NCBI GenBank assembly: GCA_013122435.1
Contig: WYDT01000025.1
Span: forward strand, 6,535-70,534
Direction: 5' to 3'
DNA length: 64,000 nucleotides
From: Chloroflexi bacterium AL-N1
GTDB lineage: Bacteria; Chloroflexota; Chloroflexia; Chloroflexales; Roseiflexaceae
Positions 6,176 to 48,848 of the stretch are shown here, piece by piece. The notes beneath the pieces were generated by a model that saw only the letters and a program-made list of their open reading frames with translations, was not told the origin of the DNA and ran no database searches. Position 1 is the first letter of the stretch. Each line of letters begins with the position of its first letter. The translations under genes were made by a program, and so were the position numbers.

Positions 6176-9100
6176 CTACGTGGCGTTGGTCATTTCTTCC
6201 CAGGCTGCGTAAAGATCGTCCTTCGTCTTCAAACCAGCACGTGGCAAGGCATGATTGACGATGTATGTTGCACCGGCGTGACGGTTGTCCCACATCTCCT
6301 GGTGGGCCCGTGCCAATTCATCCCACTCAACCAACTCTGGCTCGGTGATGCTGAGGAGACCTGCGCTGATTTCGTCGTTCAGCCGCAGAATTTCGTGGGC
6401 ATTACAGAGGTGTGTTCCCCAGATATTGGCCGTCGGCATGTAAATGCGCCGTTGACGCATCCAGATCTGTGGTGCAAAGAATGAATAGCGCTGGTTATCC
6501 ATGTTTTCGTAGTATATAATCCGACCAGTGTAAGGTTTCACCAGCATCGAACTTACTGCTAATGTATCATGGCCAGCACGCTCAATGATGAGATCAGGAT
6601 ATCCACGTGGGTTTTCTGCGCTACGCAACAACGATCCAACCGCACCCCCCAGAGGTTTGAAGGTTAGGTCATTGAAGTCCCGTATCGCATCCTTGAATCC
6701 TTGGAGATCGACACGCGCTTCAGGCAATTCCGGCATAGTTTCAGGCCAATCAAATTCATCACCATAACGGCGCTTAAGCGTCTCTACACTGACCACACCC
6801 TTGAGTGAAGCACCAAAGCCAAGACTTAGCACAAACTCACGTTGAGCATCAGTATAGGTAGCCACAACAATACGCGCGCCTTTGACACGAGCCGCTTCAA
6901 TGGCTTCCAGCCCGACCTGATCAACCAGATGATCCGCCTGTGTGGCGCTTGTTTGACCTGGTTTCACATCTTTGGCATCTACACCATAGTAAATCAAGAC
7001 CGCTTCACCGGCACGAAGATTGGCTCGCTGGAGCATCTCAATCGGGTCTACGGCGCCTGGCTTACCTAAAAATGTAAAGTGATAGCCACTACTCGCACCG
7101 TAGAATGTCAACGTTGGAATATGGCCATCGTGTGGTTCGCCAAGTATTTGGAAGCTACGAGGGAAGGCTTGCTCACCTGCGTGTGAGACGGCATAGTCAG
7201 CCAGATGTCCATCATTCTGAGCACGGAAGTCATCGAGCAATGCACGCCCGGCCTGTTCCCATGCCCGCCACTGCGCCGGATTTGCAGGAACCCGTGTAAA
7301 GCAATCCTTGTAACGTGGATCTTTCCGGTTAAGGCTCCCCTGTGCCCCAGCCTGGCGAATCGTCTCGGCCCGTGCAGGACTACTCACCATACCCATTGCA
7401 CGAAGACCATTACGCGTTGAGGAGTGTACCGCATCCAGTCCGGTACCTGTGGCTGCACCTTCAATGAAGATCGTACGTCCTGGCTGGATTTGCAGGATCG
7501 TGAACAGTGCGCGATAAATAGTTCCCAGATTCAGAATATAGCTTCCGGCTGACTCAAGCGACAGGTCGGGCGGCAATGGCATACACTGTGGTGCCTGGGC
7601 AAGCATAAACTGTTGATGGGAGCCATCTGGTGTATTGTAGCCCTGAATACCGAAGTCGGCAAACATCGGATCGAGGCCCTGCATTGGCGAAAGGAGATCG
7701 CTCTGACCACTATAGATCGTGACCAGATTACCAACCTTGAGACGGCCCTGCCGACGCGCCTCTTCGCCGAGTGCCGCGATGAGGCCAATCCCACCACTAC
7801 CACTAACATGCCAATCACGATCGTGTTCGTCAAACTGCGACACCGGTATGCCGGTAATGGCCCAAATGTCGTTAAAGTTGACTTCGCTGGCAAGCACATA
7901 GATCAGCGCCTCATTAGGACTCGGGCTTTCCACAGGAATCACAATCTGATGTTCGGTTTCCTCTGGATCGCCATGCATGTAGGCACCAGTCTGTTCATCA
8001 CGAACAATGGCCTGTGCATACTGCCAATTTGGCATGGGGGTAATCCCAGGGAAGAAAGGTGTCCCAATCGGTAACAGTTCGCCATCTTCGATAAACTGTC
8101 GTTCGTCCTGTGTGCCAAGGAGCGCACGACGTGTTGGGAGCGGCGCACTGCGCTTGTCGAGGAAGTCTTGAATCCCACGTTTGCCGCCTTCAGGATCGAC
8201 GACTGCCTCAGCAAACAGATACGCTTCTCGCCCCAGGCCCTGCACCAATCCGTTGGTCAAACCAAAGCGCATGGCTTCGAGCGCACGATCAACCGCTTTG
8301 GTACGGCCTGCCCTGTGTGACTGCTGCACAATACGCTCGATCCGAGGATGCCGTAACAGCGGTTCAAATTCCTCTGTCACAAACTGTTGGGCAGGAGCCT
8401 CCCACGAAGCTGTGCGTGTTTTGCGGCGCTCAAAAGCGTTGGCAAGCACTGATGCTTTCTGTGTGGGGCCATGCGCTGATCCGTTGGTTGCTTGTGCGGT
8501 ATCGCCAAGCTGCTTGCCATATTCGCGCACATACGCGGTAGCCACCGAAAGCGAATCCTGGTTGGCCTGTGCAACAATATCCACCAACCCAATGTCATGG
8601 GCTTCCTGCGCGCTGATATTGCGTCCACCAAGAATGAGTTCGAGTGCGGTTAACAACCCGTCGGTGCTGCTATTGGCGTGGAGCAAACGTGGCAGACGTT
8701 GCGTGCCACCATACCCCGGCAGCAGGCGCAGATTAATCTCTGGCTGACCAAATTCGGCGTGCATATCTGCAACACGATAGTGGCATGCAAGCGCAAACTC
8801 GAGACCACCACCCAGAGCAACACCGTTGATTGCCGCAATACAAGGCTTGTTCATCTGCTCAATCTTGCGGAAAGCCGGATGGGCGTTGTTCGGCAACGCG
8901 ATGGCATCCTCGACCGAGTGCGTCTCCTCGAGAAGCTGGCGGATATCAGCACCGGCCACAAAACTCTTGGTTCCCTGACCCGTGAAGACGATGGCTTTCA
9001 CCTCATCACGCCGCGCAAGATGGTCGACAATGGTATTGAGTTCATCAAGCGAGCGCTCATTTAAGGCATTGACCGGCGGGTTCGTAATCGTTACCACCGC

Positions 9101-11767
9101 CATTTTGGCCTGGCGTTGCGATCGCTTGGCACCAATGGGATGATACTCGATCAGGAAGTAGCGGTAGCGTTCGAAAATCTTCTGCTCCGCAGCCAGAGTC
9201 TGGAGTCGTTTCCAGTCATCGATCTTACGCTTGATCTCCTCCAGGATCTCTGGATTCCGCAGCGATGTCGTGTCTCCCAGATCTTCATCAAGCATCATGT
9301 TGCGGAGAAAGCGCCGCATGTACTTGCCGCTGCGTGTTTCGGGAAATGCGCTTATCTCGATATAATCTTCGGGCACGGCAACCACACCCTTTTCCGCACG
9401 TACCAGTTCACTGAGTCGACGACGATCCTCAATCGACAACTTGCGGCTGGCGGGCGTCAGGATAAATGCGACTGGTGTCAGACCTTTCTCACGGTGTGGA
9501 GCACCCACCACAATACAGTTACCCACCGGCGAGTCGGCGTTTTGTTGCTTGTCGCGGAGGATCGCCCCCTCGATTTCTTCGGTTCCCATACGATGGCCAC
9601 TGACGTTGATCACATCGTCGCTGCGTCCGTGGAGCGAGAAACTGCCATCTTCGTATTTCATAGCAAAGTCGCCCTGAATGTAGGCCCACTTGCCATCCGG
9701 CCCCTTGCGCCAATAGGTCTGTTCAAAACGCTCCGAGTCGCCATGCCACGCTGGGATCACCCCATCCCCAGTCATCCTGAAATTCTCTGTATCGCCCCAG
9801 ATCGTACGTGCAAGATAGGGATAGGGCGTGGTGATCACGATCTCACCTTTTTCCTCATAATCAGCAACACGATACTGATGGCTGGTCTGATCTGTGTCTG
9901 TTGCGCCGTCGTTCGTCCATACATCACCGACAACCCAGGGCAGCGGATAGGTGCGGGCATCGGCGCGTAAAGGGAAGTCGGCATTACCAAAGAAATGCGT
10001 CCAGACAATACCACCGTGCTCAGTGGCCCAGTAAGAATTGATATATTGTGGCGACATGACGTCCATACCGAATTGCTGGACCGCCGGACTGACGGGTTCC
10101 GCGCAGAAGGTACATACACGCAGCGTACTCATATCGTACTGACGCACATCAGCAACATTCTGCGAGTCGGTCATCACGCTTTTGAGAAAGGTGACACCGG
10201 CTTTAAAGATGTTGACACCGTAGCGTTCGATAATGCTGGAAAATCGACCAGAACTGGGGAAAACTGGTGCGCCCTCTGCAATAATACCAGTGCAACGGCT
10301 ACTGAGTGTGGCCGTAATCATATAACTCTGACCAGTAATCCAGCCCGGATCGGCAATCACATAGACGACATCGCCTGGTTCCGCATCAAAACTAACACCC
10401 ATTGTGTGGGTCAGGCCCGCCGTGTAGCCACCGTGTACATGGACAACCCCCTTCGGCTTGCCGGTACTACCACTGGTGTAGATGATAAACAGCGGGAAAT
10501 CGGCATCAAGTGGTTCTACCGGACTGGTGGCATACAGGGCTTTGATAAATTCAGCAGTTGGAAGATTGAGCAATTCCTGCTCATTCTGAACCTGAACCCC
10601 CGCGAGACGCGCTTGCTCCAGAATACCCTGCATCGCCGTCTCAAGCAGATCGTGGCTCCAGACATCGCGCTCAGGCCGCCACAAAATATCGTGGCCAGTG
10701 TGGCGCACCACAATGACCTTGTCGACTCGCGGCGGTGCACCAACCAACGCCTGTGCAATGGCTGTACGAATACGTGATTGTGTGGCCGCATCGAGCGTAC
10801 TCAAATGATCGAGGGCCCGCCCGACGCCGCGCATCACATCGCTGCGTTCAATCGTTACTTCGCCCTTGATGGTGCGATCAACCTCTGCCAGGATATGTTC
10901 AGCGGCCTGCTTGTCGACAAGCATTGTGGCATCACTATGCAGCGTTGTACGAACCATCTCCAGCGCAACCTCAACGGGAATAAACTTGTCGAGCGCCTGG
11001 TCGGTGTACACCTCTTTGTACGTCACGATCTGGGCATTACGATAACCACCATCACTGGTGATGATGACACGTGCACCTGCGTTGTGGATGCGGTCGCTCA
11101 ACGTTTTATCGCTAAACCCACCAAAGACCGGCGTGTAGATAATACCCAGGCGTTTGGCTGCCTCTGTGTAATAAATCTGCTCAACGATGTTCGGCATGTT
11201 CAGCGCGATACGATCACCCCGCTGTAGCCCAAGGTTACGTAATACCTGAGCCGCCTTCACGACTTCGAGCAAAAGGCGCTTGCGGGTAACCGGGTAACTC
11301 ACCAGCGGACCACCACGCCCCTCATTAAGCGAGGAGTCCCAGCGGTCACCCTCAAAGTAGAAGGCCGCTTCGTCACCATGGCCCATCAGCACATGGCGAT
11401 CTACCTCGTTGAAACAGGCGTTGGTCAATCCACCCTCAAACCAGCGATAGAATGGCGCAGCATCGTCATTGAGCGACCTTTTCCATGGAAGATGGTTTGC
11501 ATTGTATGGAACATCAACTTCGGCCCCAGTTTTGGCATGCAGTCCGGTCCAGCGTTGTTGTTTTTCATCCCAGGTAATCCAGGCATCAAGTGTGCGGTCG
11601 TACCAGTGGATGGCCGAGCGAGCAATGGCACCCTGAAATACACCGGGGTTGTCCACAAATGCCTGGCGTTGTGCTTCCCAATCAGCGCGTGTACGAATTG
11701 TATTGATACGGGGTGAACGTAAGCGTTCAGCCCGTTCTTGTTCAAAAGAAGAAGTGGTTTTACTCAT
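6176..11767 (-). CDS. pcs: Propionyl-CoA synthase, trifunctional (acyl-CoA synthetase - enoyl-CoA hydratase - enoyl-CoA reductase), 3-hydroxypropionate bicycle
   Basis: 1863-aa ORF. AMP-binding motif IIYTSGSTGKPKGVVHVHGGY. Central crotonase segment VVTITNPPVNALN...FVAGADI...GVALGGGLEFA. C-terminal MDR-type reductase. Near-collinear with Chloroflexus aurantiacus Pcs from memory (WATEHGGIVWTHF, GRSDDVINVSGHRMGTEEIEGAIL). Confidence 0.9.
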   Translation of the reverse strand: MSKTTSSFEQERAERLRSPRINTIRTRADWEAQRQAFVDNPGVFQGAIARSAIHWYDRTLDAWITWDEKQQRWTGLHAKTGAEVDVPYNANHLPWKRSLNDDAAPFYRWFEGGLTNACFNEVDRHVLMGHGDEAAFYFEGDRWDSSLNEGRGGPLVSYPVTRKRLLLEVVKAAQVLRNLGLQRGDRIALNMPNIVEQIYYTEAAKRLGIIYTPVFGGFSDKTLSDRIHNAGARVIITSDGGYRNAQIVTYKEVYTDQALDKFIPVEVALEMVRTTLHSDATMLVDKQAAEHILAEVDRTIKGEVTIERSDVMRGVGRALDHLSTLDAATQSRIRTAIAQALVGAPPRVDKVIVVRHTGHDILWRPERDVWSHDLLETAMQGILEQARLAGVQVQNEQELLNLPTAEFIKALYATSPVEPLDADFPLFIIYTSGSTGKPKGVVHVHGGYTAGLTHTMGVSFDAEPGDVVYVIADPGWITGQSYMITATLSSRCTGIIAEGAPVFPSSGRFSSIIERYGVNIFKAGVTFLKSVMTDSQNVADVRQYDMSTLRVCTFCAEPVSPAVQQFGMDVMSPQYINSYWATEHGGIVWTHFFGNADFPLRADARTYPLPWVVGDVWTNDGATDTDQTSHQYRVADYEEKGEIVITTPYPYLARTIWGDTENFRMTGDGVIPAWHGDSERFEQTYWRKGPDGKWAYIQGDFAMKYEDGSFSLHGRSDDVINVSGHRMGTEEIEGAILRDKQQNADSPVGNCIVVGAPHREKGLTPVAFILTPASRKLSIEDRRRLSELVRAEKGVVAVPEDYIEISAFPETRSGKYMRRFLRNMMLDEDLGDTTSLRNPEILEEIKRKIDDWKRLQTLAAEQKIFERYRYFLIEYHPIGAKRSQRQAKMAVVTITNPPVNALNERSLDELNTIVDHLARRDEVKAIVFTGQGTKSFVAGADIRQLLEETHSVEDAIALPNNAHPAFRKIEQMNKPCIAAINGVALGGGLEFALACHYRVADMHAEFGQPEINLRLLPGYGGTQRLPRLLHANSSTDGLLTALELILGGRNISAQEAHDIGLVDIVAQANQDSLSVATAYVREYGKQLGDTAQATNGSAHGPTQKASVLANAFERRKTRTASWEAPAQQFVTEEFEPLLRHPRIERIVQQSHRAGRTKAVDRALEAMRFGLTNGLVQGLGREAYLFAEAVVDPEGGKRGIQDFLDKRSAPLPTRRALLGTQDERQFIEDGELLPIGTPFFPGITPMPNWQYAQAIVRDEQTGAYMHGDPEETEHQIVIPVESPSPNEALIYVLASEVNFNDIWAITGIPVSQFDEHDRDWHVSGSGGIGLIAALGEEARRQGRLKVGNLVTIYSGQSDLLSPMQGLDPMFADFGIQGYNTPDGSHQQFMLAQAPQCMPLPPDLSLESAGSYILNLGTIYRALFTILQIQPGRTIFIEGAATGTGLDAVHSSTRNGLRAMGMVSSPARAETIRQAGAQGSLNRKDPRYKDCFTRVPANPAQWRAWEQAGRALLDDFRAQNDGHLADYAVSHAGEQAFPRSFQILGEPHDGHIPTLTFYGASSGYHFTFLGKPGAVDPIEMLQRANLRAGEAVLIYYGVDAKDVKPGQTSATQADHLVDQVGLEAIEAARVKGARIVVATYTDAQREFVLSLGFGASLKGVVSVETLKRRYGDEFDWPETMPELPEARVDLQGFKDAIRDFNDLTFKPLGGAVGSLLRSAENPRGYPDLIIERAGHDTLAVSSMLVKPYTGRIIYYENMDNQRYSFFAPQIWMRQRRIYMPTANIWGTHLCNAHEILRLNDEISAGLLSITEPELVEWDELARAHQEMWDNRHAGATYIVNHALPRAGLKTKDDLYAAWEEMTNAT

Positions 11768-11919
11768 AGTTATGTGACCTACTTTTTTCTTATCTCTTGG
11801 CTATCACATCTGTAAATCTAATCATATTTTAGGATCGTGTTTTCACAACATACAGAGGCATAACAGTAGCTTGTATACTGCTACAGCCCCTGTAAATTGT
11901 AGCTAAGCAGCCTGTAACA

Positions 11920-14900
11920 TTACACCGTAATCGCATTCCCACGATAAATACGTGCACGATAACGACTATCACTTGGCTTTGGTAACGGTGCGCTTGTAAG
12001 CAGCACAGCGTGTACAAAACGGATCAACTCCTCTTCTTCCTCAACCGCATTCCGTGGCTCCTCGCTGCGGGCACGTCGCGTGAGATCAACCTGATTGACG
12101 GGGACGTGTGGCATGGTTCGTTCACTTTCCGCTCCAACTGTTGCAGTCAATGCGTGCAATGTGGTCTTGACAAAGTTGGCCAGCGCAAACTCTTCCTCGG
12201 TGGAGCGTGCCGTCGTTTCCGGTGTGATTAAGACCAGTTGAGCGCCATCCATCAGTGAGATTTTCTGGGTGACCCGAAAATGGTGGGTGATTTGATCTTC
12301 CACCAGATCACTGAATTCCTGCTCGCTCAATACATCGGACCAATCGCCATCTTTCGCTACCAGCGCACGCTGTGGTATAGAGCGAAAGGGCATGCTTATC
12401 ACCGGGCCAGGGCTCCCGAAAGTCGCACGGGCAGCATCAATGCCCTGCTCAATATTGCCATTGGTCGCAATAGCGCACAACCGCCCACTATCGCGATGCG
12501 CTGGCATTGTCGCCATGATGGCATCAGCAGCTTCAGCGGTCTCGGTGAGCAACACAACCCGTTTGGCATTCAAATCATCCAGATAGACCTGCGTGAGCCG
12601 TATTAAATGCTTTTGCATATGCTCACCAATAAGATACACAACATTATCACGGAAACGAGCAATACGTTCTGGACGACCTTTGCCGAATAACTCACCCTCA
12701 GTCACCGTACGCTCAAATCGTAGTCCACCAGACGGATGGAATGTTTCACCACTGACATTATGATCGGCCAGATAGTAAATCGTTGCCTTGGCCACTTCCA
12801 GTTCAGTGGGCATACGCTGCAGATAGAGCATGCCAATAATCCCTTTGTGCACCTTCTGCGCCTCTCGCTCAATTTGCTCAAAGGTAAAGAATGGCTCCGT
12901 CGGGATGTTGGTAAGTTGTGGGATAGGAATAGATGTCGTCGTAAATGACTGTTCAGAGATCGTTTCAGTACGTCGACCGGAGGTTGTGTCAGGTGGAGAG
13001 GATGGGGTTGCTACCGCCACGGCTTCTTTCGGCAAGATCTCCATTGTGACACCCTCTTTGGCATTGTTTTCCTGACTGTAGTGGAGATAGCCACTGGTTT
13101 CCAGTCGGCGTATCAACTTTTGGGCAATCTTTTCGTTCATGAGGTACATACGCGATGATCCAGATGGATCACTACGTTCCCAGATGGTTGCGGCCATACG
13201 CTGTAACGAATCAGGGATATCGCCAACGCTACGCATCAACATCATCACATCATTGGCAAATATGAGCGGGAGCATATCAGCAATAGAACGACCAGTTGAG
13301 CTATGTGCCTCAACTATCGCAGCATAGAGCTCGTTCAAACGCTTGTTTTGCAGAATCAGCCGTCCTCGACGGGCGAACAAGCCCGGTCGCTCACCGGTGC
13401 CGCGCAAACGGTCTCCTTCAACTGGACCAGGGGCAAGGGCATTGATCTGGACTTGCGGTCCCAGGAAGCGCGCGAGTGTTTCAACCATGGCACGCTGCCC
13501 AGCTTTACTCACGGCATAATCAGACCGGTTTGGATAAGGGATGGCGACATATTTTTCCCCACCAAAATAGGACGAAACGTTCAAAATATAGCCACGTTCC
13601 TGAGCTTTCATCAATGGCGCCAGTTTGCGAATTAGGGTGTAATTGCTAATGAGATTGGCCTGCAGTGTGTGCCGCCAACTTTCCAACGGCATGTCGATCA
13701 CCATCTCTTCCGCACCAGAAATTCCAGCATTATTAAAGAGGTAATCCACATGACCAAATGTTTCGATAGTGTACTCCGCTAAGCGCTCAAGGTCCTTTGA
13801 GTCAGCCACGTCACAGTTCGCAATCACCCGCACACGTTTTTCAGCATTGGGATAACCTGCATCGTGTACTTCACGCACAATCGCCTCACGAGCTTCATTC
13901 AATTGGTCGGCACCACGCGCCGCAAGCATGACATAGGCACCACTGAGAGCCAACAGTCGCCCAATCTCACCACCAATACCAGAACTGCCCCCTGTAACCA
14001 GAGCAACCTTATCACGATGCAGATTGTAGAGATTCTCCGCCCAATCAGGAAGCGATCGGTGTGCACCTCTCATCGGTGCAATCTGTTTTGGCAAGACCAG
14101 GTTGATTTCTTCAATATCACGTTGGTTTGCCAACAGATCAGCAATCCACATGTGAGCATAGTCGCGACTCTTATCGCCATCGTTAGTGTAACGAATAAGC
14201 TGATGAGCACGAATCGCGGTCGATGTTTGCGTTCCATTAGACGCATGGCGAGCCGCGTCAAGCGTAGACTCATGGCGCCATACACGTACTAATTGCTCCA
14301 GAGCTGCACTCAGCACTTTGGCGTAGACATTATTGTGTCCATCATCACCATTGCTCGCAAAGATGATGTGTGGTGTCTGCACTGGTGGTCTGTTCTGCCA
14401 GTGTCGCATCAACTGACTCGCCAGACTCATTACACCAGTAATTTCATCTTCGAGAAATTGACTGATGCTAGTGTCATCAGCCTCGGTAAGGTGTGCTGAG
14501 TTTTTCGATGATACCGTGTGATAGTGCGAAATGTTATGTGCGGGTAACACCACCACATGATTTGGATCACCACAGGTGGCACGCACGCGATCAAGCGCAA
14601 TGCCCACACTCGATGGATCGTGTGGTGAGAGGCAGCACAATAGCAATTCCTGTGAGTCCATTGACTCCTCGACTGCATCCAGCGTGGTACCATCACGGAA
14701 GGCCAATGCTACTTTGGCACCATAGGTCTTGAGTGTTTGTGCAAGGTGCAACGAATCATCGATTTGATCACCAGCACAGATAAGCACAACCTCATCGACA
14801 AATTGAATGTTGCGTCGTTCTGGCCATGCCACCAGCGTGGTGCGACTCTCGACAGGCACATCCATTCCGTTCGTCACCTCGAATATATGGCCACTGTATG

Positions 14901-15720
14901 CGGCAGCCTCATCACTCCCAAGGAAAACAACGCTATCTGCTACATCAACCGGCTTGGGAAAGCCTTTCTCCAACTCACCTGTACTACCTGTCCGGCTGAG
15001 ACGCATAATGTCGAAAAAACCATTGGCTGTCGTCCCATCAGGAATGCCTTTAAGTTCATCCATCGACTTGAAGACGGTACGGATACGCTCGCTGTCAATC
15101 GGACCTGGGTAGATAGTATTCACACGGATGCCCTGAGCACCAAGTTCACGTGCACACTGCTCACTCAATGCGTTAAGTGCCGCTTTGGGGACAACGTAGG
15201 GGATACGTCCATAGTAATCCGTCCTTGAAAAAATCGTTGAGACATTCACAATGCTGCTGCCAGGTTGCATATGAGGGGCAACTGCACGCGTCATATTCCA
15301 GGTGATACTGAGCAGATTACCCACTGCCTGGCTGAGTGTTTCTGTGTCGGGGCTTCGGAGATCGTTCGGTTGTATCGGAACATCAATAAGACGACGACGA
15401 GGTCCAGCAGTTCCAGCATTGTTCACCAGAATATCAATACGGCCCGCCTTCGCGATGATGGTATCAATGCCCATACGTACCTGCTGCATATTACTTCCAT
15501 CAAACGCAACAGTAATGATCCGTTCGGGTGAAATCTGTTCACCCTCGATCAGCCGGTGGCGATACTGCTCCAACTTAGCTTCCGTACGTCCTGTAATAAC
15601 GACTGTGGCACCTTCAGCAAGGTAGCACCGCGTAATGATTTCACCGATATTACCAGCACCGCCGGTAATGATAGCAACTTTGCCGTTTAGTCGCCCTTGA
15701 CGACCTTCTTGTTGTGACAT
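11920..15720 (-). CDS. mcr: Malonyl-CoA reductase, bifunctional (NADPH-dependent malonyl-CoA to 3-hydroxypropionate), 3-hydroxypropionate bicycle
   Basis: 1266-aa ORF. N-terminus GKVAIITGGAGNIGEIITRCYLAEGATVVITGRT (SDR Rossmann). Second SDR at KVALVTGGSSGIGGEIGRLLALSGAYVMLAARG. C-terminal end ...RYRARIYRGNAITV matches the C. aurantiacus Mcr terminus. Strong SD GGTGAGGAGG upstream. Confidence 0.9.
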   Translation of the reverse strand: MSQQEGRQGRLNGKVAIITGGAGNIGEIITRCYLAEGATVVITGRTEAKLEQYRHRLIEGEQISPERIITVAFDGSNMQQVRMGIDTIIAKAGRIDILVNNAGTAGPRRRLIDVPIQPNDLRSPDTETLSQAVGNLLSITWNMTRAVAPHMQPGSSIVNVSTIFSRTDYYGRIPYVVPKAALNALSEQCARELGAQGIRVNTIYPGPIDSERIRTVFKSMDELKGIPDGTTANGFFDIMRLSRTGSTGELEKGFPKPVDVADSVVFLGSDEAAAYSGHIFEVTNGMDVPVESRTTLVAWPERRNIQFVDEVVLICAGDQIDDSLHLAQTLKTYGAKVALAFRDGTTLDAVEESMDSQELLLCCLSPHDPSSVGIALDRVRATCGDPNHVVVLPAHNISHYHTVSSKNSAHLTEADDTSISQFLEDEITGVMSLASQLMRHWQNRPPVQTPHIIFASNGDDGHNNVYAKVLSAALEQLVRVWRHESTLDAARHASNGTQTSTAIRAHQLIRYTNDGDKSRDYAHMWIADLLANQRDIEEINLVLPKQIAPMRGAHRSLPDWAENLYNLHRDKVALVTGGSSGIGGEIGRLLALSGAYVMLAARGADQLNEAREAIVREVHDAGYPNAEKRVRVIANCDVADSKDLERLAEYTIETFGHVDYLFNNAGISGAEEMVIDMPLESWRHTLQANLISNYTLIRKLAPLMKAQERGYILNVSSYFGGEKYVAIPYPNRSDYAVSKAGQRAMVETLARFLGPQVQINALAPGPVEGDRLRGTGERPGLFARRGRLILQNKRLNELYAAIVEAHSSTGRSIADMLPLIFANDVMMLMRSVGDIPDSLQRMAATIWERSDPSGSSRMYLMNEKIAQKLIRRLETSGYLHYSQENNAKEGVTMEILPKEAVAVATPSSPPDTTSGRRTETISEQSFTTTSIPIPQLTNIPTEPFFTFEQIEREAQKVHKGIIGMLYLQRMPTELEVAKATIYYLADHNVSGETFHPSGGLRFERTVTEGELFGKGRPERIARFRDNVVYLIGEHMQKHLIRLTQVYLDDLNAKRVVLLTETAEAADAIMATMPAHRDSGRLCAIATNGNIEQGIDAARATFGSPGPVISMPFRSIPQRALVAKDGDWSDVLSEQEFSDLVEDQITHHFRVTQKISLMDGAQLVLITPETTARSTEEEFALANFVKTTLHALTATVGAESERTMPHVPVNQVDLTRRARSEEPRNAVEEEEELIRFVHAVLLTSAPLPKPSDSRYRARIYRGNAITV

Positions 15721-15824
15721 TATAGGACCTCCTCACCATAATTTATGAGGTATACAAAAATGTAAGGAATCTCATTTTTACGAAGTGAAATGACTGCTAA
15801 AACGAAAGTGTGTTGCTTGGTAAA

Positions 15825-16694
15825 CTAACTTGCAAACCCGGATACGCTCGCCAATGAATAATGTGCAGTATCTTGATAATGCCCAATTGCACGATACTTT
15901 GCGTATCGTAACGATAAAAGTGCTGACATACTGAGCTCTTGAAGTTCTTGAAGGTTGTCGACAATCGCTCGCCGCAACGAAGTCATCGTGGACACATAAT
16001 CAGTGTGTGCACCCCCCGGCGGTTCGGGGATCACCTGATCAACAATGTGAAGTTCATGCAACTCTGGTGCTGTAATCCGCATCACCTGAGCAGCTTCCGG
16101 CGCTTTAGTGGCATCACGCCAGAGAATAGAGGCCGCTGCTTCCGGTGATGCCACCGAATAGATTGCGTTTTCGAGCATGAATAATGTATCAGCGACACCA
16201 ATAGCCAGTGCCCCACCACTACCGCCTTCACCAATCACACAGGCAATAATCGCTGTTTGTAGTTTGGCCATGGTCCAGATACTCTCAGCAATGGCATTGG
16301 CCTGTCCGCGTTGCTCTGAGTCTTGGTTAGGATTGGCACCCGGCGTATCAATCAGACATAAGACCGGGAAACCAAATTTTTCAGCGTGCTGAAAGAGCCG
16401 CAAGGCTTTACGATATCCTTCAGGATGCGCCATGCCAAAATTATGCTGAACATTTTCGCAGGTGTGACGACCTTTCTGATGACCAATGATCAAGATAGTC
16501 TGGGTATCAAAGGTAGCAATACCACCAATAATGGCTTGATCGTCACCAAAACGACGGTCACCATGAAGTTCGACAAAATCCTCACATAATCCGTGGATGT
16601 AATCCAACGCCCGTGGCCGTTGAGGATGGCGTGCCAACTGAACGCGGTCCCACGGACTGAGGGTCTGGTATTCCATATTTGTTACTGCATTCAT
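15825..16694 (-). CDS. accA: Acetyl-CoA carboxylase carboxyltransferase alpha subunit
   Basis: Collinear with E. coli AccA: LARHPQRP..DYI, IIGHQKGR, NFGMAHPEGYRKALRL, VIGEGGSGGALAIGV, SVASPEAAASILW. Start chosen at ATG (MNAVTN...), 31 nt after the accD stop. The track's upstream TTG at 16793 would overlap accD. Confidence 0.85.
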   Translation of the reverse strand: MNAVTNMEYQTLSPWDRVQLARHPQRPRALDYIHGLCEDFVELHGDRRFGDDQAIIGGIATFDTQTILIIGHQKGRHTCENVQHNFGMAHPEGYRKALRLFQHAEKFGFPVLCLIDTPGANPNQDSEQRGQANAIAESIWTMAKLQTAIIACVIGEGGSGGALAIGVADTLFMLENAIYSVASPEAAASILWRDATKAPEAAQVMRITAPELHELHIVDQVIPEPPGGAHTDYVSTMTSLRRAIVDNLQELQELSMSALLSLRYAKYRAIGHYQDTAHYSLASVSGFAS

Positions 16695-16725
16695 ACAATC
16701 AAATTTCTTTTTATTTCCACAATGA

Positions 16726-17673
16726 TTAGGCCACTGAACGCACTGCCGGCAAACGCCCTTCTCGATTTCTGAGGTTTGTAGTTTCCAGAACACGGTCGGT
16801 ATGGCTGTACATGCGCGCTAACCTGGCTAGCGTCACACGGATGTCGTTGCGTGACACAATCATATCGACCATGCCATTTTGCAACATGAACTCAGCCGTT
16901 TGGAAGTCGGCAGGCAGTTTTTGACGAATGGTTTGTTCAATCACTCGTTTACCAGCAAACCCGATGTTAGCACCTGGTTCAGCAATGATAATATCGGCAA
17001 CAGATACATAGGATGCCCTCACCCCATCATAACAAGGATCGACCAGAAGCGAGATATGTGGTTGGTGGGCATCGGCAAGTCGCGTGAGCGCCATGGTCAT
17101 TTTGGTCATCTGCATCAGCGAAATGAGCCCCTCTTGCATACGGGTACCACCACTGGAATTAATCGTCAACAAGGGTATTTCACGGTGTGCAGCCCGTTCG
17201 GCTGCTCGCGCTGTCTTTTCACTATAGACACTTCCCATGGAAGCGCCCATGAAACGAAAATCACAGATAGCGACCACCATGGTAAACCCATTAATGGTCC
17301 CCTGTCCACTGAGCACTACATCAGAAAGAGACGTTCGATCCTGAGCTTCACGCAACTTATCGGCATATGACGCATCAAGTGAGACAAATCCTAACGGATC
17401 AGTCGGTCGCAGACCTGTGTCATATTCCTGAAACGAACCCTCATCGAACAGACGCAACCATTCATGTCCCTTCAAGCGCATGTGATAGTTGCAATGGGGA
17501 CATACACCGAAATGGTCATCAAGTTGCTTGCGATAGATGAGTTCACGACACGAGGAGCACTTGACCCACAGGTTATCGGGCAGGTCAGACAGCGGTGATT
17601 GTTGGACCACCGTAAAGCTCTTGCGTGTACGCTGAATAAGCTCTTTCAAAGTAGCCTCCTCAAAGTCTATCAA
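16726..17673 (-). CDS. accD: Acetyl-CoA carboxylase carboxyltransferase beta subunit
   Basis: N-terminal Zn ribbon CSSCRELIYRKQLDDHFGVCPHCNYHMRL. Carboxyltransferase fold with SMGSV, GGTRMQEG. TTG start. Confidence 0.85.
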   Translation of the reverse strand: MIDFEEATLKELIQRTRKSFTVVQQSPLSDLPDNLWVKCSSCRELIYRKQLDDHFGVCPHCNYHMRLKGHEWLRLFDEGSFQEYDTGLRPTDPLGFVSLDASYADKLREAQDRTSLSDVVLSGQGTINGFTMVVAICDFRFMGASMGSVYSEKTARAAERAAHREIPLLTINSSGGTRMQEGLISLMQMTKMTMALTRLADAHQPHISLLVDPCYDGVRASYVSVADIIIAEPGANIGFAGKRVIEQTIRQKLPADFQTAEFMLQNGMVDMIVSRNDIRVTLARLARMYSHTDRVLETTNLRNREGRLPAVRSVA

Positions 17674-18052
17674 GTGCCTGACTAATCTGAGGCATCCGAG
17701 CCTCGGGTCACAAAACTAGAAAAACGTTGGAAAAACGCTTGGTGATCTGGTAACGATTATAAAATTCCGATTTCAACTTTCTTCACAAAGTGTACCAATA
17801 TCCGTTTGTGAAAGAGACCACCAGAAGGATAGGTTTTAGAACAACATCGGAGGGGAAGTTCCCCGTCTTTTGGGGGGGATGCACATGGAAACAAAAAGAG
17901 GTTACGAAAAAAAGCCCTTTGTTATGCGGTATCTATGGACAAGGTGTGGTTAGTGCTAATTGTGCAACAACCCATCATCGGTTCACTATACCTATCGAAA
18001 CGGAGGTTTGAGACGCATACACGCAGCAGCCTTGTGATCCTCTTAGACAACT

Positions 18053-18967
18053 TTATGAGAATGGCACAACCTTGATGGTCGTGCCTAGATGATGCTCATG
18101 CGCTGCTGTAACAGTGATGGCGTCATCATAAGCATTACTTGTTTCGACACACACCATCTCTGTGTACTCCTGCTCGCCAAAGTCACGCATGCGCTGCGCT
18201 TTTGCACTTCAGGGGTTCCACACAACCGTCGATTGGCTCCCCGTCTTAACGATATGAATATGTCGTTGTAACTCTGAGTCATCAATACGACACGTGGCAT
18301 CGGTTGCAAGATAGACCTTATCTATTTCGTGAGAGATAGCAATAGGACCATCCTGTACTTTCCGTTGTCCCGAGTCAAGCTGATCGATATAAGTGGTTGC
18401 TTCCAGACCATGGATGGTGATGTGCGAAATATGGCTAACAGTAAAATAACTATGCAATGCGCCGCTGTAGGAAAAAGTCGTGGTCCCTGTGTTCCGTACG
18501 CATAGCTCAATCTCGAGTGATGCTCCAACCGTGATGGTAATCTCAAGTTCAAAGACATGGGGCCAGAGTGTTTGTGTTTCGTTGGTATCACGTAATCCCA
18601 GTCGTATACGGGTTGCTTCGTTCGCGACAACAACGGTTTCCAGAACTGACCAGATCGATGTGCGTGCAAATCCGTGAGATGGTTTGTATGTATCTGTTGG
18701 ATGTGGCCCGAACCATGGCCAACACACCGGCACACCACCACGCATAGGCTTGCCGACTTCGTAAAAACTCTGTGCGCTTGACCACAGTACTGGTGCTTGG
18801 TCATGTGGTTGGTATGACAAGACGTGGCCACCATAAAGCGCAACAGTTGCGTGGGCATGTGTATTTCGAATAGCGGCTACTGGTAGTCCACCAGGGCCAT
18901 CGACAAAAGAGAGTTGGTGCTCAACACCAAACTGCCTGTTCAGTTCTTCTAGCTGTGGAAAAAGCAT
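18053..18967 (-). pseudogene. D-hexose-6-phosphate mutarotase / aldose-1-epimerase family (YeaD-like) gene interrupted by an in-frame TGA at the conserved Trp of the WNPW motif
   Basis: The track ORF 18209..18967 (252 aa) ends ...STVVWNP-TGA. The same frame stays open 52 more codons to a TAA at 18053, encoding ...SAKAQRMRDFGEQEYTEMVCVETSNAYDD..., which matches the YeaD C-terminus (WNPW...YKTMVCVEAANA). The TGA occupies the conserved W codon. Confidence 0.6.
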
Positions 18968-19054
18968 GTGCTACCTTATCACTTGGCTGACTTGCACACT
19001 CAATTCTACCATATTGCAAAGAGGGACCAACAATACACTCTGTTTATCATATTA

Positions 19055-20947
19055 CTATGACAAGCTTGATTGGCTATCAGACGCAGATGGCTGTAGAAGT
19101 GGCTGTGAGGGGGGATGAAAATCGTCCTGATCAACGGCCAACAACGATTGAGAGTCAAAAGAACAGGAAAGGCTATTTGGCAATCGGACGGTAAATGTTG
19201 ATCCTTCTCCCATGGTACTAACAACCGTAATGTCACCATCCAGCATCTGACAAAGATGACGACTGAGCGAAAGTCCGAGACCTGTTCCACCATACCTGCG
19301 GGTAGTTGATGAATCGGCCTGTGTGAATGCCTCGAAAAGATAGGAGATTTTGGCGGGATCGATGCCGATACCAGTGTCAGTAATGTTGAACATGATCCAC
19401 GCTGTGCCATTCATCTCTTCACGTTGCACCTCAAGCGTTACTGTACCACGCTCAGTAAATTTGGCTGCATTACTCAATAAATTGAACAGAATCTGGCGAA
19501 TCTTGGTGGGGTCACTTGACATCGTACCAATATCTAATGAGCAGTTGACGATAAATGTATTTGCATACGATTCGACAATTGGGCGAGTTGTCGTGATGAT
19601 TTCGTCCACAAGCATACTAATATCAAACTCATCGATAAAAAGTGCCATTTGCCCAGCCTCAATCTTGGAAAGGTCGAGCAAGTTGTTAACCAGTGCCAGA
19701 AGATGGTGTCCGGCAGACCAGATAGCAGAGAGATCTTCGGTGAGTTGTACGGTTTCAAGATCATCGGCCTGTCGTTGCAGCAGTTCACAATAACCAATGA
19801 TAGTTGTCAACGGGGTACGCAATTCGTGGCTCATCGTACCGATAAAAGAATTTTTGGCAATGTTGGCCGCTTCAGCCATCTCCTTGGCTTGGTAGAGGAT
19901 TTGTTCATTCTGCTTTCGTTCGGTGATATCACGTACAACAATGAGATATCCTGTGTGCACCCCTCGTTTATCCTGAAGCTGGGTAATGCGCGTGTCGAAT
20001 ATAAGCGGTTGCGAACCATGGTCTATCTGCAATTCCACGCGTGCATCTTGTGTGCCCCACAGGTAGTCGAATCTGTCATGATAGCGTGCAAACAACAGCT
20101 CTGCTGGTTTCCCAATCATACTTCGGTTGGGCTGTCTCAGGATAGTGATGGCTGCTGGATTGATGTCAACCACGCGCTTCTGTGGATCGAGAACGATGAC
20201 ACCATCACGAATATTTTCAATAACCACCTCACGTGCAATTGGTATGATGTCAAATAATTGATAGCGAAACAAGCCCCACCCCAGAATAATGGCGGTTAAC
20301 GTGAATGCAAAGGGTGTCATATCAATTGAGTCAATAGGACTTAGACCAACAAGATAGATCATATTCCCAAGCCAGGGAATGCACCCACCTATAAGCAGTG
20401 TACCCGCTTGTTTGCGTTGTTGGGGTGTTGATCGCATAAACGTTTGAGCAATAGTAACTGTGCCATACAGAAATAGGATGTATGAATACGCCGTGTGAAC
20501 CCAGAACAAAGGCCCCATCTGAGCATCTAGTATGGTTAACTCACCACTGTTTACCAGGCTGATATTACTGCGAAATAATCCGTGAAAGCTATTTGTCCAG
20601 ACACATAACAAAGTCACAATGGGCATAATTGATAGCAGAATAATAGTTCGCCGCGTCAATTGCTGCCGATCATCTGCGTATTGCATTGCCAGAGTCACCC
20701 ACGCTACCGGAACAACCACAATTCCTATATAAATGACATCTGTCCAAAAAAGCTTTGTGGTGAGATCGCCACTTACCAAACTCAAAGCATATCCCAACGT
20801 CCATACAGTTATGGCGAGGGTTAAGATCGCAAATGGGCGCGACCCCAGTGCTGATCGATAGCGACTTGCGATCAGTGTAAGACCGAGTGATATAAGTGCT
20901 GCACCCATAAGTGGAATAATAACCAGAAAGTACTGCCAGTACATCAT
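19055..20947 (-). CDS. Sensor histidine kinase with an N-terminal multi-pass (7TM-type) membrane sensor, PAS domain, HisKA and HATPase_c
   Basis: About six N-terminal hydrophobic helices. PAS-like REVVIENIRDGVIVLD. H-box SHELRTPLTTIIGYCELL. N/G-boxes LLSNAAKFT, DTGIGI, GGTGLGLSL. Confidence 0.8.
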   Translation of the reverse strand: MMYWQYFLVIIPLMGAALISLGLTLIASRYRSALGSRPFAILTLAITVWTLGYALSLVSGDLTTKLFWTDVIYIGIVVVPVAWVTLAMQYADDRQQLTRRTIILLSIMPIVTLLCVWTNSFHGLFRSNISLVNSGELTILDAQMGPLFWVHTAYSYILFLYGTVTIAQTFMRSTPQQRKQAGTLLIGGCIPWLGNMIYLVGLSPIDSIDMTPFAFTLTAIILGWGLFRYQLFDIIPIAREVVIENIRDGVIVLDPQKRVVDINPAAITILRQPNRSMIGKPAELLFARYHDRFDYLWGTQDARVELQIDHGSQPLIFDTRITQLQDKRGVHTGYLIVVRDITERKQNEQILYQAKEMAEAANIAKNSFIGTMSHELRTPLTTIIGYCELLQRQADDLETVQLTEDLSAIWSAGHHLLALVNNLLDLSKIEAGQMALFIDEFDISMLVDEIITTTRPIVESYANTFIVNCSLDIGTMSSDPTKIRQILFNLLSNAAKFTERGTVTLEVQREEMNGTAWIMFNITDTGIGIDPAKISYLFEAFTQADSSTTRRYGGTGLGLSLSRHLCQMLDGDITVVSTMGEGSTFTVRLPNSLSCSFDSQSLLAVDQDDFHPPSQPLLQPSASDSQSSLS

Positions 20948-47885: not shown

Positions 47886-48848
47886 ATGAACTATCGCCGA
47901 TTAGGCCGTACCGGTCTGCAGGTTTCGCCGCTTTGTCTTGGAACAATGCAGTTTGGCTGGACTGCCGATGAAGTAACGTCTTTTGCCGTGATGGATGCTT
48001 TTGTAGAGCAGGGCGGCAATTTTATTGATACAGCAGATATATACTCACGTTGGGTGGAAGGGAATGCTGGTGGTGTTTCCGAAGAAATTATCGGTCGCTG
48101 GATGCAACAGCACAACAATCGGCGCAACATCGTGCTGGCCACTAAAGCACGCGGTCGCATGTGGGATGGACCCAATGGTGAAGGACTCAACCGTGCTCAC
48201 ATTATGCAAGCCTGTGATGACAGCCTGCGTCGGCTGCAAACGGATTATATTGACCTGTACCAAACCCACGCCTATGATGCGAACACGCCTATCGAAGAGA
48301 CTCTTGATGCACTCAACGATCTGGTTCGTGCAGGCAAAGTACGCTATATTGGCTGCTCCAATTACCCGGCCTGGCGACTCGCCCTGGCACTGGGCGCGAG
48401 CGAACGACAACACTTTGCTCGTTATGAATCGCTCCAACCGCACTACAATCTGGCTAACCGTGCCGAGTTTGAACGCGAACTGGAACCTCTTTGCCTGGAT
48501 CAAGGAGTGGGCGTTATTCCCTATAGCCCACTGGCAGGTGGCTTTCTCACCGGGAAATATCGACGAGATCAAGACCTTCCTGAAAGCGTGCGTTCAAGCG
48601 GCATTCAAGAACGTTATTTCAATGAGCAGGGATGGAATACGGTTGATGCATTGGTAACGGTCGCAAAGGACCTCGATACCGAGCCCACCCAGGTGGCGCT
48701 GGCTTGGCTGCTCTCACGGCCCAACATTACCGCCCCCATTATTGGTGCTAACTCAACCGAACAACTCAACACCAGCCTCGCGGCAATCAACGTAAAGCTG
48801 AGCGATGAACAGATACAGCAATTAGAAAAAGCCAGTGCGTGGAGCTGA
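47886..48848 (+). CDS. Aldo/keto reductase family oxidoreductase
   Basis: [24 protein letters not shown]; FIDTADIY; catalytic tetrad D..Y..K..H; 320 aa. Confidence 0.85.

What the first reader, a model, noticed from the sequence alone, without database searches (positions are those of the whole stretch)
18053..18967. In-frame TGA replacing the conserved tryptophan (WNPW) of a YeaD-like aldose-1-epimerase gene
The ORF stops at ...STVVWNP-TGA (18209-18211). The same frame then continues for 52 codons (...SAKAQRMRDFGEQEYTEMVCVETSNAYDD...) to a TAA at 18053, and that tail matches the family C-terminus. The stop sits exactly where homologues have Trp (TGG). So this is a single-nucleotide TGG>TGA nonsense change, a sequencing error, or a read-through/recoding site. 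It gives a ~304-aa product if read through, versus a 252-aa truncation lacking the last beta-strands.
Basis: seen in the sequence. Interest (0 to 1): 0.55.

Follow-up and report, generated by a model that had tools for sequence, protein, structure and literature searches.

The report
Recent nonsense mutation in mutarotase gene
A sugar-phosphate mutarotase gene in an uncultured phototrophic Chloroflexi bacterium carries a real single-base TGG-to-TGA change that cuts off the catalytic end of the enzyme; this is an ordinary, recent gene inactivation, not a change in how the genetic code is read.

Summary
The minus-strand ORF 18967..18209 (252 aa) ends ...VVWNP-TGA. The same frame stays open for 51 more codons to TAA at 18055..18053. 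The 304-aa conceptual product is a full-length Aldose_epim / D-hexose-6-phosphate mutarotase.

Of 118 homologues, 116 have Trp at the stop position, 2 have Gly, and all continue past it.

The window comes from 'Candidatus Lithoflexus mexicanus' (Lake Alchichica microbialite MAGs). The identical truncated protein has at least four GenBank accessions from separately assembled metagenomes, so a one-off sequencing error is unlikely.

A 99.5%-identical sister contig has TGG at this site. It carries its own 1-bp frameshift and substitutions at invariant residues (D230E, W250R) in the same gene. No intact allele from this species was found.

TGA is a normal stop for 10 other ORFs in the window. There is no hairpin after the stop, no Rfam hit and no tRNA in the window.

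The lost tail holds the invariant catalytic Glu275 and three beta-strands, so the 252-aa product should be inactive.

Apart from the stop, the window allele is unblemished, and its tail has dN/dS 0.09 against the nearest intact relative. The lesion is therefore recent. Incidental Trp read-through could give a trace of wild-type enzyme. Interest is low.

The parts
18209..18967 (-). Truncated ORF (252 aa plus TGA) of a D-hexose-6-phosphate mutarotase (Aldose_epim) gene. It retains the conserved His98 and His172.
   Evidence: Identical to P0001 / NOK62974.1 and others, annotated 'D-hexose-6-phosphate mutarotase [Chloroflexi bacterium AL-W / AL-N1]'.
18209..18211 (-). Premature TGA at codon 253, derived from TGG (Trp) by a G>A transition at window position 18209.
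   Evidence: DNA alignment; A in window, G in L002; W in 116 of 118 homologues, G in 2.
18053..18208 (-). Orphaned 3' part of the gene: 51 sense codons plus TAA. It encodes helices 255-259 and 267-270 and strands 271-278, 284-286 and 291-302 of the beta-sandwich.
   Evidence: dN/dS 0.09 against L003.
18143..18145 (-). GAA codon for Glu275 (motif CVET). This is the invariant catalytic general acid/base Glu of mutarotases, and it lies downstream of the stop.
   Evidence: E in 118 of 118 homologues. It aligns with E264 of yeast Ymr099c in 2CIQ. The role of the equivalent Glu is described in PMC5902678.
18053..18190 (-). In-frame ATG-initiated 45-aa ORF inside the tail (Met260). It is the only conceivable re-initiation product. 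The Met is ancestral (AKAQRMRDFG in relatives), not a new start.
   Evidence: Nothing suggests it is used.

Best explanation
This is a genuine, evolutionarily recent nonsense mutation (TGG Trp253 to TGA) in the YeaD/Ymr099c-type D-hexose-6-phosphate mutarotase gene of 'Candidatus Lithoflexus mexicanus'. It appears fixed, or nearly so, in the quasi-clonal Lake Alchichica population.

Translation terminates at codon 253 by the normal route, since TGA is an ordinary stop in this genome. The resulting 252-aa fragment lacks three beta-strands of the sandwich and the catalytic Glu275, so it is expected to be inactive and probably unstable (inferred).

The gene appears dispensable in this species. 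The only other allele found, in a 99.5%-identical strain, is independently broken by a 1-bp deletion and carries substitutions at invariant residues. Spontaneous anomerisation of glucose-6-phosphate may be enough for the organism (inferred).

UGA is near-cognate for Trp-tRNA(Trp), so occasional unprogrammed read-through would insert exactly the ancestral residue. That would give a small amount of wild-type enzyme and make the allele a leaky null (inferred).
For: 1. The lesion is one G>A transition relative to the sister strain and outgroups.

2. The same truncated protein occurs in at least 4 GenBank records (NOK62974, NOK70566, NOK77558, NOK84409; AL-W, AL-N1 and others) and on 8-14 contigs, including an independent Logan assembly that is 100% identical over 3.5 kb. 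The MAGs were assembled separately from five Illumina data sets.

3. No intact conspecific allele turned up among 5.8 billion clustered proteins. After P0001 (nonsense) and P0005 (frameshift), the next hit is 79% identical.

4. The sister contig L002 has TGG here but also a 1-bp deletion at window 18702 (CACATCC to CACTCC, not a homopolymer), plus D230E and W250R at positions invariant in 118 of 118 homologues.

5. Differences between the two strains cluster in this gene: 13 per 915 bp against 27 per 7120 bp in the flanks (p = 3e-4). Nonsynonymous density is 10/699 sites against 11/4859 (p = 9e-5). pN/pS is about 1.5 against 0.28.

6. TGA is a normal stop: 10 other ORFs end in TGA, and in all five that have a Pfam match the profile is complete before the stop.

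7. There is no hairpin after the stop (z = +0.95), no Rfam family in the window and no tRNA gene in the window.

8. The tail holds invariant Glu275 and strands 271-278, 284-286 and 291-302. The equivalent Glu is the general acid/base of mutarotases (PMC5902678).

9. Recency: the window allele breaks none of the other 64 columns that are at least 95% conserved, and the tail has dN/dS 0.09 against L003.

10. Background UGA read-through by Trp-tRNA(Trp) is about 2-4% in E. coli K-12 reporters (PMC10570021).
Against: - Raw reads were not inspected, so a systematic error, or a polymorphism that each assembler resolved the same way, is not strictly excluded.
- On the window's own branch there are only 2 nonsynonymous changes besides the stop, both at variable positions (K217, E232). 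Relaxed constraint is therefore shown for the sister lineage and for the gene overall, not for this allele itself. The unblemished sequence also fits an allele kept useful by read-through.
- L002 is a single Logan contig of unknown provenance (SRR11470444) and could contain assembly errors.
- Only 64 kb of the genome was available, so a paralogue, a suppressor tRNA or an RF2 defect elsewhere cannot be excluded.
Confidence: 0.85

Rival explanations
1. Functionally meaningful read-through. The UGA, in the context Pro-UGA-A, is decoded as Trp by Trp-tRNA(Trp) often enough to supply the needed enzyme. The allele would then be a maintained low-expression hypomorph rather than a dead gene.
For: - UGA at a Trp codon is the one nonsense change whose near-cognate read-through restores the wild-type sequence.
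- E. coli K-12 reporters show about 2-4% UGA read-through.
- Apart from the stop, the allele breaks no conserved column, and the tail is identical in the two strains.
- From my own knowledge, not tested here: a C-terminal Pro slows termination in E. coli.
Against: - The stop is absent from a 99.5%-identical strain and from all 118 homologues, so it is not a conserved feature.
- That sister allele is itself frameshifted and mutated at invariant residues, which argues that the enzyme is dispensable.
- There is no stimulatory structure downstream.
- Four of the 10 other TGA stops in the window have the same +4 base, A.
- The intact appearance is equally explained by recency.
Confidence: 0.07
2. 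Sequencing, assembly or consensus artefact. The real genome has TGG and the gene is intact.
For: The sequence is a metagenome-assembled genome. The closest strain has TGG. Apart from the stop the ORF is perfect.
Against: - The identical TGA-terminated product occurs in at least 4 separately assembled bins from different depths and sites, and in an independent Logan assembly.
- A G>A substitution outside any homopolymer is not a typical Illumina systematic error (my own knowledge).
- No intact version is in the protein collection.
Confidence: 0.04
3. Genome-wide or local recoding: UGA reassigned to Trp (table 4) or Gly (table 25), or selenocysteine insertion.
For: The stop sits exactly at a Trp column, and 2 of 118 homologues and Salmonella YeaD have Gly there.
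Against: - 10 other ORFs in the window end with TGA. All five of them that have a Pfam match show a complete profile before the stop, and the extensions beyond the stop have no Pfam match.
- No other in-frame TGA splits a gene in the 64 kb.
- There is no SECIS-like hairpin.
- Homologues have Trp, not Cys or Sec, at the site.
- A 42,109-genome survey of UGA-to-Trp reassignment does not mention Chloroflexi.
Confidence: 0.01
4. Split or truncated but functional. Either the 252-aa fragment works alone, or it reassembles with a 45-aa peptide re-initiated at ATG 18190.
For: An in-frame ATG lies 18 nt after the stop.
Against: - The Met is ancestral and no Shine-Dalgarno-like sequence is visible ahead of it.
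- The fragment lacks the invariant catalytic Glu275 and three core strands.
- None of the 118 homologues is split or ends here.
Confidence: 0.02

Closest known systems
YeaD / Ymr099c-type D-hexose-6-phosphate mutarotase (glucose-6-phosphate 1-epimerase, EC 5.1.3.15). Structures: 2HTA (Salmonella YeaD), 2CIQ (yeast Ymr099c), 1JOV (HI1317).
   Same: The conceptual 304-aa product is a full-length member. It matches PF01263 at E 2.7e-43 and 2HTA at E 8.7e-42. It has invariant H98, H172 and E275 and the WNPW motif of Ymr099c and HI1317. Its relatives share the kinase-mutarotase-accD gene order.
   Different: The gene is interrupted at codon 253, so the encoded ORF product lacks Glu275 and the last three strands. 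Salmonella YeaD itself has Gly, not Trp, at the affected position.
Ordinary bacterial nonsense pseudogenes and leaky UGA nonsense alleles read by wild-type Trp-tRNA(Trp)
   Same: A single-base stop in an otherwise intact gene. A sister strain carries an independent frameshift in the same gene. UGA competes between RF2 and Trp-tRNA(Trp) (PMC10570021).
   Different: No essential difference. The only unusual point is that the nonsense codon replaces Trp, so any read-through would restore the exact ancestral protein.
UGA-to-Trp genetic code reassignment (table 4: Mycoplasmatales, some endosymbionts, some Patescibacteriota)
   Same: A TGA at a conserved Trp column.
   Different: TGA is used as a true stop throughout the window. 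There is only one such site, and its closest relative has TGG there.

Membership tests
Aldose 1-epimerase superfamily / D-hexose-6-phosphate mutarotase (YeaD, Ymr099c) | Sequence match to the family profile above the curated threshold, over the whole domain | tested here: met
   PF01263: 148.9 bits (cut-off 27), profile positions 5-295 of 299, spanning the stop. PDB 2HTA E 8.7e-42, 2CIQ E 2.6e-26. The 252-aa ORF alone is annotated as this family by NCBI.
Aldose 1-epimerase superfamily / D-hexose-6-phosphate mutarotase (YeaD, Ymr099c) | Conserved catalytic His / His / Glu residues present in the translated product | tested here: not met
   H98 and H172 are in the ORF. The invariant E275 (118 of 118 homologues) is encoded only downstream of the TGA. 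The feature is met for the conceptual 304-aa read-through product and not met for the 252-aa product actually specified.
Aldose 1-epimerase superfamily / D-hexose-6-phosphate mutarotase (YeaD, Ymr099c) | Complete beta-sandwich fold | tested here: not met
   The AlphaFold2 model of the 304-aa conceptual product has mean pLDDT 85.9 and pTM 0.88. Residues 253-304 form helices 255-259 and 267-270 and strands 271-278, 284-286 and 291-302. All of these are missing from the ORF product.
Aldose 1-epimerase superfamily / D-hexose-6-phosphate mutarotase (YeaD, Ymr099c) | Two conserved arginines clamping the 6-phosphate (Graille 2006, as summarised in PMC10666784) | tested here: inconclusive
   R76 (nearly invariant) and R102 (invariant) are present in the alignment. 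That these are the clamp residues is inferred, not checked on a structure.
Aldose 1-epimerase superfamily / D-hexose-6-phosphate mutarotase (YeaD, Ymr099c) | Glc-6-P mutarotase activity | not testable with these tools
   Needs an enzyme assay, for example EXSY NMR as in PMC5902678.
UGA-to-Trp (or Gly) reassigned genetic code | TGA not used as a stop at gene ends; many in-frame TGA at conserved Trp (or Gly) columns | tested here: not met
   11 of 44 long ORFs in the window end in TGA. In all five tested that have a Pfam match, the profile is complete before the TGA. The extensions beyond the stop are short, without a Pfam match, or simply the next gene. No other split gene was found in the six-frame scan.
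UGA-to-Trp (or Gly) reassigned genetic code | tRNA with UCA anticodon or a modified tRNA-Trp; loss of RF2 | not testable with these tools
   There are no tRNA genes in the 64-kb window, and the rest of the genome was not available.
Selenoprotein (Sec-UGA) | SECIS hairpin just 3' of the UGA; Cys or Sec at the homologous position | tested here: not met
   The 96-nt fold has MFE -22.1 kcal/mol and z = +0.95 against shuffles. Homologues have W (116) or G (2) at the site.
Programmed stop-codon read-through | The stop codon is conserved among relatives and has a stimulatory context or structure | tested here: not met
   The sister strain at 99.5% identity and all other relatives have TGG. There is no downstream structure and no Rfam element.
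Pseudogene by nonsense mutation | A disabling lesion relative to all homologues that is reproducible across independent assemblies | tested here: met
Pseudogene by nonsense mutation | Relaxed selective constraint on the locus | tested here: inconclusive
   For the gene overall, pN/pS is about 1.5 against 0.28 in the flanking genes, and nonsynonymous density differs at p = 9e-5. Seven of the 10 nonsynonymous changes and the frameshift lie on the sister branch. The window allele has only 2 changes plus the stop, and breaks no other conserved column.

The most novel reading that the evidence does not exclude
The Trp-to-UGA allele is not dead but a selected 'dimmer switch'. In the Pro-UGA-A context, Trp-tRNA(Trp) reads through at a physiologically tuned rate and regenerates the exact wild-type mutarotase at low level. 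The rate could vary with growth state, as cAMP- and tRNA-Trp-dependent UGA read-through does in E. coli. The allele swept the quasi-clonal Alchichica population because reduced mutarotase dosage is advantageous next to the 3-hydroxypropionate-bicycle genes.
Probability: 0.04. Interest if true: 0.5.

Novelty: already known. Interest (0 to 1): 0.12.

Why it matters
Its importance is mostly practical.

- GenBank names the 252-aa product 'D-hexose-6-phosphate mutarotase' as if it were a normal protein. It should be flagged as a truncated product or pseudogene. Metabolic reconstructions of 'Ca. Lithoflexus mexicanus' should not count this activity.
- The case is a clean small example of parallel loss. 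Two near-identical strains have broken the same gene in different ways, which suggests that enzymatic Glc-6-P anomerisation is dispensable for this mixotrophic phototroph.
- The nonsense allele gives a single-site marker that separates the quasi-clonal Alchichica population from its closest relative.
- It has no bearing on genetic-code evolution.

Tried and rejected
- **JGI metagenome scan.** An exact-pattern search for the site, allowing TGG or TGA and the W250R variant, found nothing. No further alleles could be obtained.
- **Genome collection scan.** Whether a second, intact paralogue exists in this genome is therefore not answered.
- **Rfam.** The gathering-threshold scan of the whole window gave 0 hits.
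- **Promoter and terminator scan, 17600-19200.** No promoter-like site was found, and the terminator-like matches were weak and mostly inside the ORF. This was uninformative.
- **Run accessions.** A literature search for SRR11470444 and SRR10436665 found nothing, so the provenance of the sister contig is unknown.
- **NCBIfam.** No family was returned for the 252-aa fragment. Pfam was used instead.
- **Selenocysteine, table 4/25 recoding and a split two-piece enzyme** were considered and rejected, as set out under rival explanations.
- **Relaxed selection on the window allele itself** could not be shown. Polarising the changes with 118 homologues puts most of them on the sister branch.

Full report
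**1. What is in the sequence**

On the minus strand an ATG at 18967 opens a 252-codon ORF that ends ...GSQSTVVWNP-TGA at 18211..18209. The same frame continues without a stop for 51 codons (SAKAQRMRDFGEQEYTEMVCVETSNAYDDAITVTAAHEHHLGTTIKVVPFS) to TAA at 18055..18053. Its '52 codons' includes the TAA.

**2. The tail belongs to the gene**

With the stop written as X, Pfam Aldose_epim (PF01263) aligns in one stretch over residues 33-295, covering profile positions 5-295 of 299 (E 2.7e-43).

The solved structures of Salmonella YeaD (2HTA, E 8.7e-42), yeast Ymr099c (2CIQ) and H. influenzae HI1317 (1JOV) also align straight across the stop.

Among the 118 best database homologues, excluding the two conspecific alleles:
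- the column of the stop is W in 116 and G in 2;
- every one continues past it;
- H98, H172, D230, W250, N251, P252 and E275 are invariant.

Salmonella YeaD itself has Gly at the site (WNPG). The 'conserved Trp' therefore holds for the Chloroflexi clade, yeast and Haemophilus, but not for the protein the gene was named after.

**3. Source and reproducibility**

The exact 252-aa product is P0001. It has GenBank accessions NOK62974.1, NOK70566.1, NOK77558.1 and NOK84409.1, and is named 'D-hexose-6-phosphate mutarotase [Chloroflexi bacterium AL-W / AL-N1]'.

These are the 'Candidatus Lithoflexus mexicanus' MAGs from Lake Alchichica microbialites. Five bins were assembled separately from five Illumina data sets. 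They have ANI above 99% and are described as quasi-clonal (Saghai et al. 2020, PMC7486959).

The protein sits on 8-14 contigs. An independent Logan assembly (L001, SRR10436665) is 100% identical to the window over 3.5 kb. A one-off sequencing or assembly error is therefore unlikely, although raw reads could not be inspected.

**4. The sister allele**

The only other close relative is P0005, on Logan contig L002 (SRR11470444). It is 99.5% identical to the window over 8 kb and has the same gene order.

At the site it has TGG. The more distant relatives L003 and L004 (75% amino-acid identity, same kinase-mutarotase-accD-accA-mcr order) also have TGG. The window's TGA is therefore a derived G>A transition at position 18209.

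L002 is broken in a different way:
- One base is deleted at window 18702 (CACATCC to CACTCC, not a homopolymer). This shifts the frame at codon 89.
- It carries D230E and W250R at positions invariant in 118 of 118 homologues.
- It also carries V15F, P25S, G47R, V81M and S181L.

Differences between the two strains cluster in this gene:

| Measure | Mutarotase gene | Flanks (kinase, accD, accA, mcr) | p |
|---|---|---|---|
| All differences | 13 per 915 bp | 27 per 7120 bp | 3e-4 |
| Nonsynonymous changes per nonsynonymous sites | 10/699 | 11/4859 | 9e-5 |
| pN/pS | about 1.5 | 0.28 | n/a |

No intact conspecific allele exists in the 5.8-billion-protein collection. The next hit is 79% identical. 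Two independent disabling lesions in near-identical strains are the classic signature of a dispensable gene.

**5. How old is the window's lesion?**

Polarising the changes with the 118 homologues puts seven of the ten amino-acid differences and the frameshift on the L002 branch. The window branch has only K217 and E232, both at variable columns, plus the stop.

The window's conceptual product breaks none of the 65 columns that are at least 95% conserved, apart from the stop itself.

Against L003 the orphaned tail has dN/dS 0.09 and the head 0.19. The tail was therefore under purifying selection for essentially all of that divergence.

The nonsense mutation is recent. Relaxed constraint cannot be shown for this allele on its own.

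**6. Recoding tested and rejected**

- TGA terminates 10 other long ORFs in the window.
- Beyond those stops the frame gives short peptides, peptides with no Pfam match, or the next gene.
- For GDP-mannose dehydratase, a solute-binding protein, TsaD, an aldo-keto reductase and a nucleotidyl transferase, the Pfam profile is complete before the TGA.
- A six-frame scan for stops flanked by long open stretches shows no other split gene.
- The 96 nt around and after the stop fold no better than shuffles (z = +0.95).
- Rfam finds nothing in the window, and there are no tRNA genes in it.
- A 42,109-genome survey of UGA-to-Trp reassignment does not mention Chloroflexi.

**7. Consequence for the protein**

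An AlphaFold2 model of the 304-aa conceptual product (mean pLDDT 85.9, pTM 0.88) places helices 255-259 and 267-270 and strands 271-278, 284-286 and 291-302 after the stop.

Strand 271-278 carries Glu275 (CVET). It is invariant and aligns with E264 of yeast Ymr099c. The equivalent Glu is the general acid/base of mutarotases (PMC5902678).

The 252-aa product therefore lacks a catalytic residue and part of the sandwich core. Inactivity and instability are inferred, not shown.

**8. Residual function**

UGA is decoded at a low rate by Trp-tRNA(Trp) in competition with RF2, at about 2-4% in E. coli K-12 reporters (PMC10570021). Here that would restore the ancestral residue, so the allele may be a leaky null.

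Nothing indicates that this is programmed. The stop is not conserved, the +4 base (A) is shared by four ordinary TGA stops in the window, and there is no downstream structure.

**9. Verdict**

It is an ordinary recent nonsense mutation in a dispensable housekeeping gene of a metagenome-assembled genome. It is already present in GenBank as a truncated protein that is not flagged as such.

It is useful for annotation hygiene and as a small example of parallel gene loss. It is not a recoding event.

Noticed in passing
window 6176-17649 (minus strand): A 3-hydroxypropionate-bicycle gene cluster lies directly downstream of the mutarotase gene. It comprises a 1863-aa acyl-CoA synthetase / enoyl-CoA hydratase / enoyl reductase fusion (propionyl-CoA synthase-like, 6176-11767), a 1266-aa double-SDR malonyl-CoA reductase-like protein (11920-15720), accA (15825-16694) and accD (16726-17649). 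The order kinase-mutarotase-accD-accA-mcr is conserved in a 75%-identical relative (L003, GCA_039178835.1).
   Followed up: partly
L002 2303-3034 (window equivalent 18702, 18220, 18278): The sister-strain contig (Logan SRR11470444) has TGG at the window's stop site. In the same gene it has a 1-bp deletion (frameshift at codon 89) and the substitutions W250R and D230E at invariant positions. This is an independent inactivation of the same gene.
   Followed up: yes
window 16726-17649 (accD) vs L002: Between the two 99.5%-identical strains, accD shows 5 nonsynonymous and 0 synonymous differences (V14A, K30N, T182A, R211T, R294G). Over the compared regions, accA shows 0 nonsynonymous and 1 synonymous, and mcr 1 and 6. 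The numbers are small, but the pattern is odd for a core carboxylase subunit.
   Followed up: no
window 17650-18052: A spacer of about 400 nt without a long ORF separates the mutarotase TAA from the accD start. It has no Rfam match and only weak terminator-like hairpins near 17850. A spacer of similar length is present in L003.
   Followed up: no
window 18209-18967 as annotated in GenBank (NOK62974.1 and others): The truncated 252-aa product is deposited under the normal product name 'D-hexose-6-phosphate mutarotase', with nothing in that name marking it as truncated or a pseudogene.
   Followed up: partly
PDB 2HTA (Salmonella YeaD), aligned to window codon 253: The family's name-giving protein YeaD has Gly (WNPG) where the Chloroflexi, yeast and Haemophilus proteins have Trp (WNPW). 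The same is true of 2 of the 118 close homologues. The residue is therefore not strictly essential for the fold.
   Followed up: partly
window 47886-48848 (+): The aldo-keto reductase ORF ends with tandem stops, TGA immediately followed by TAG. This fits TGA being a somewhat leaky but genuine terminator in this genome.
   Followed up: no
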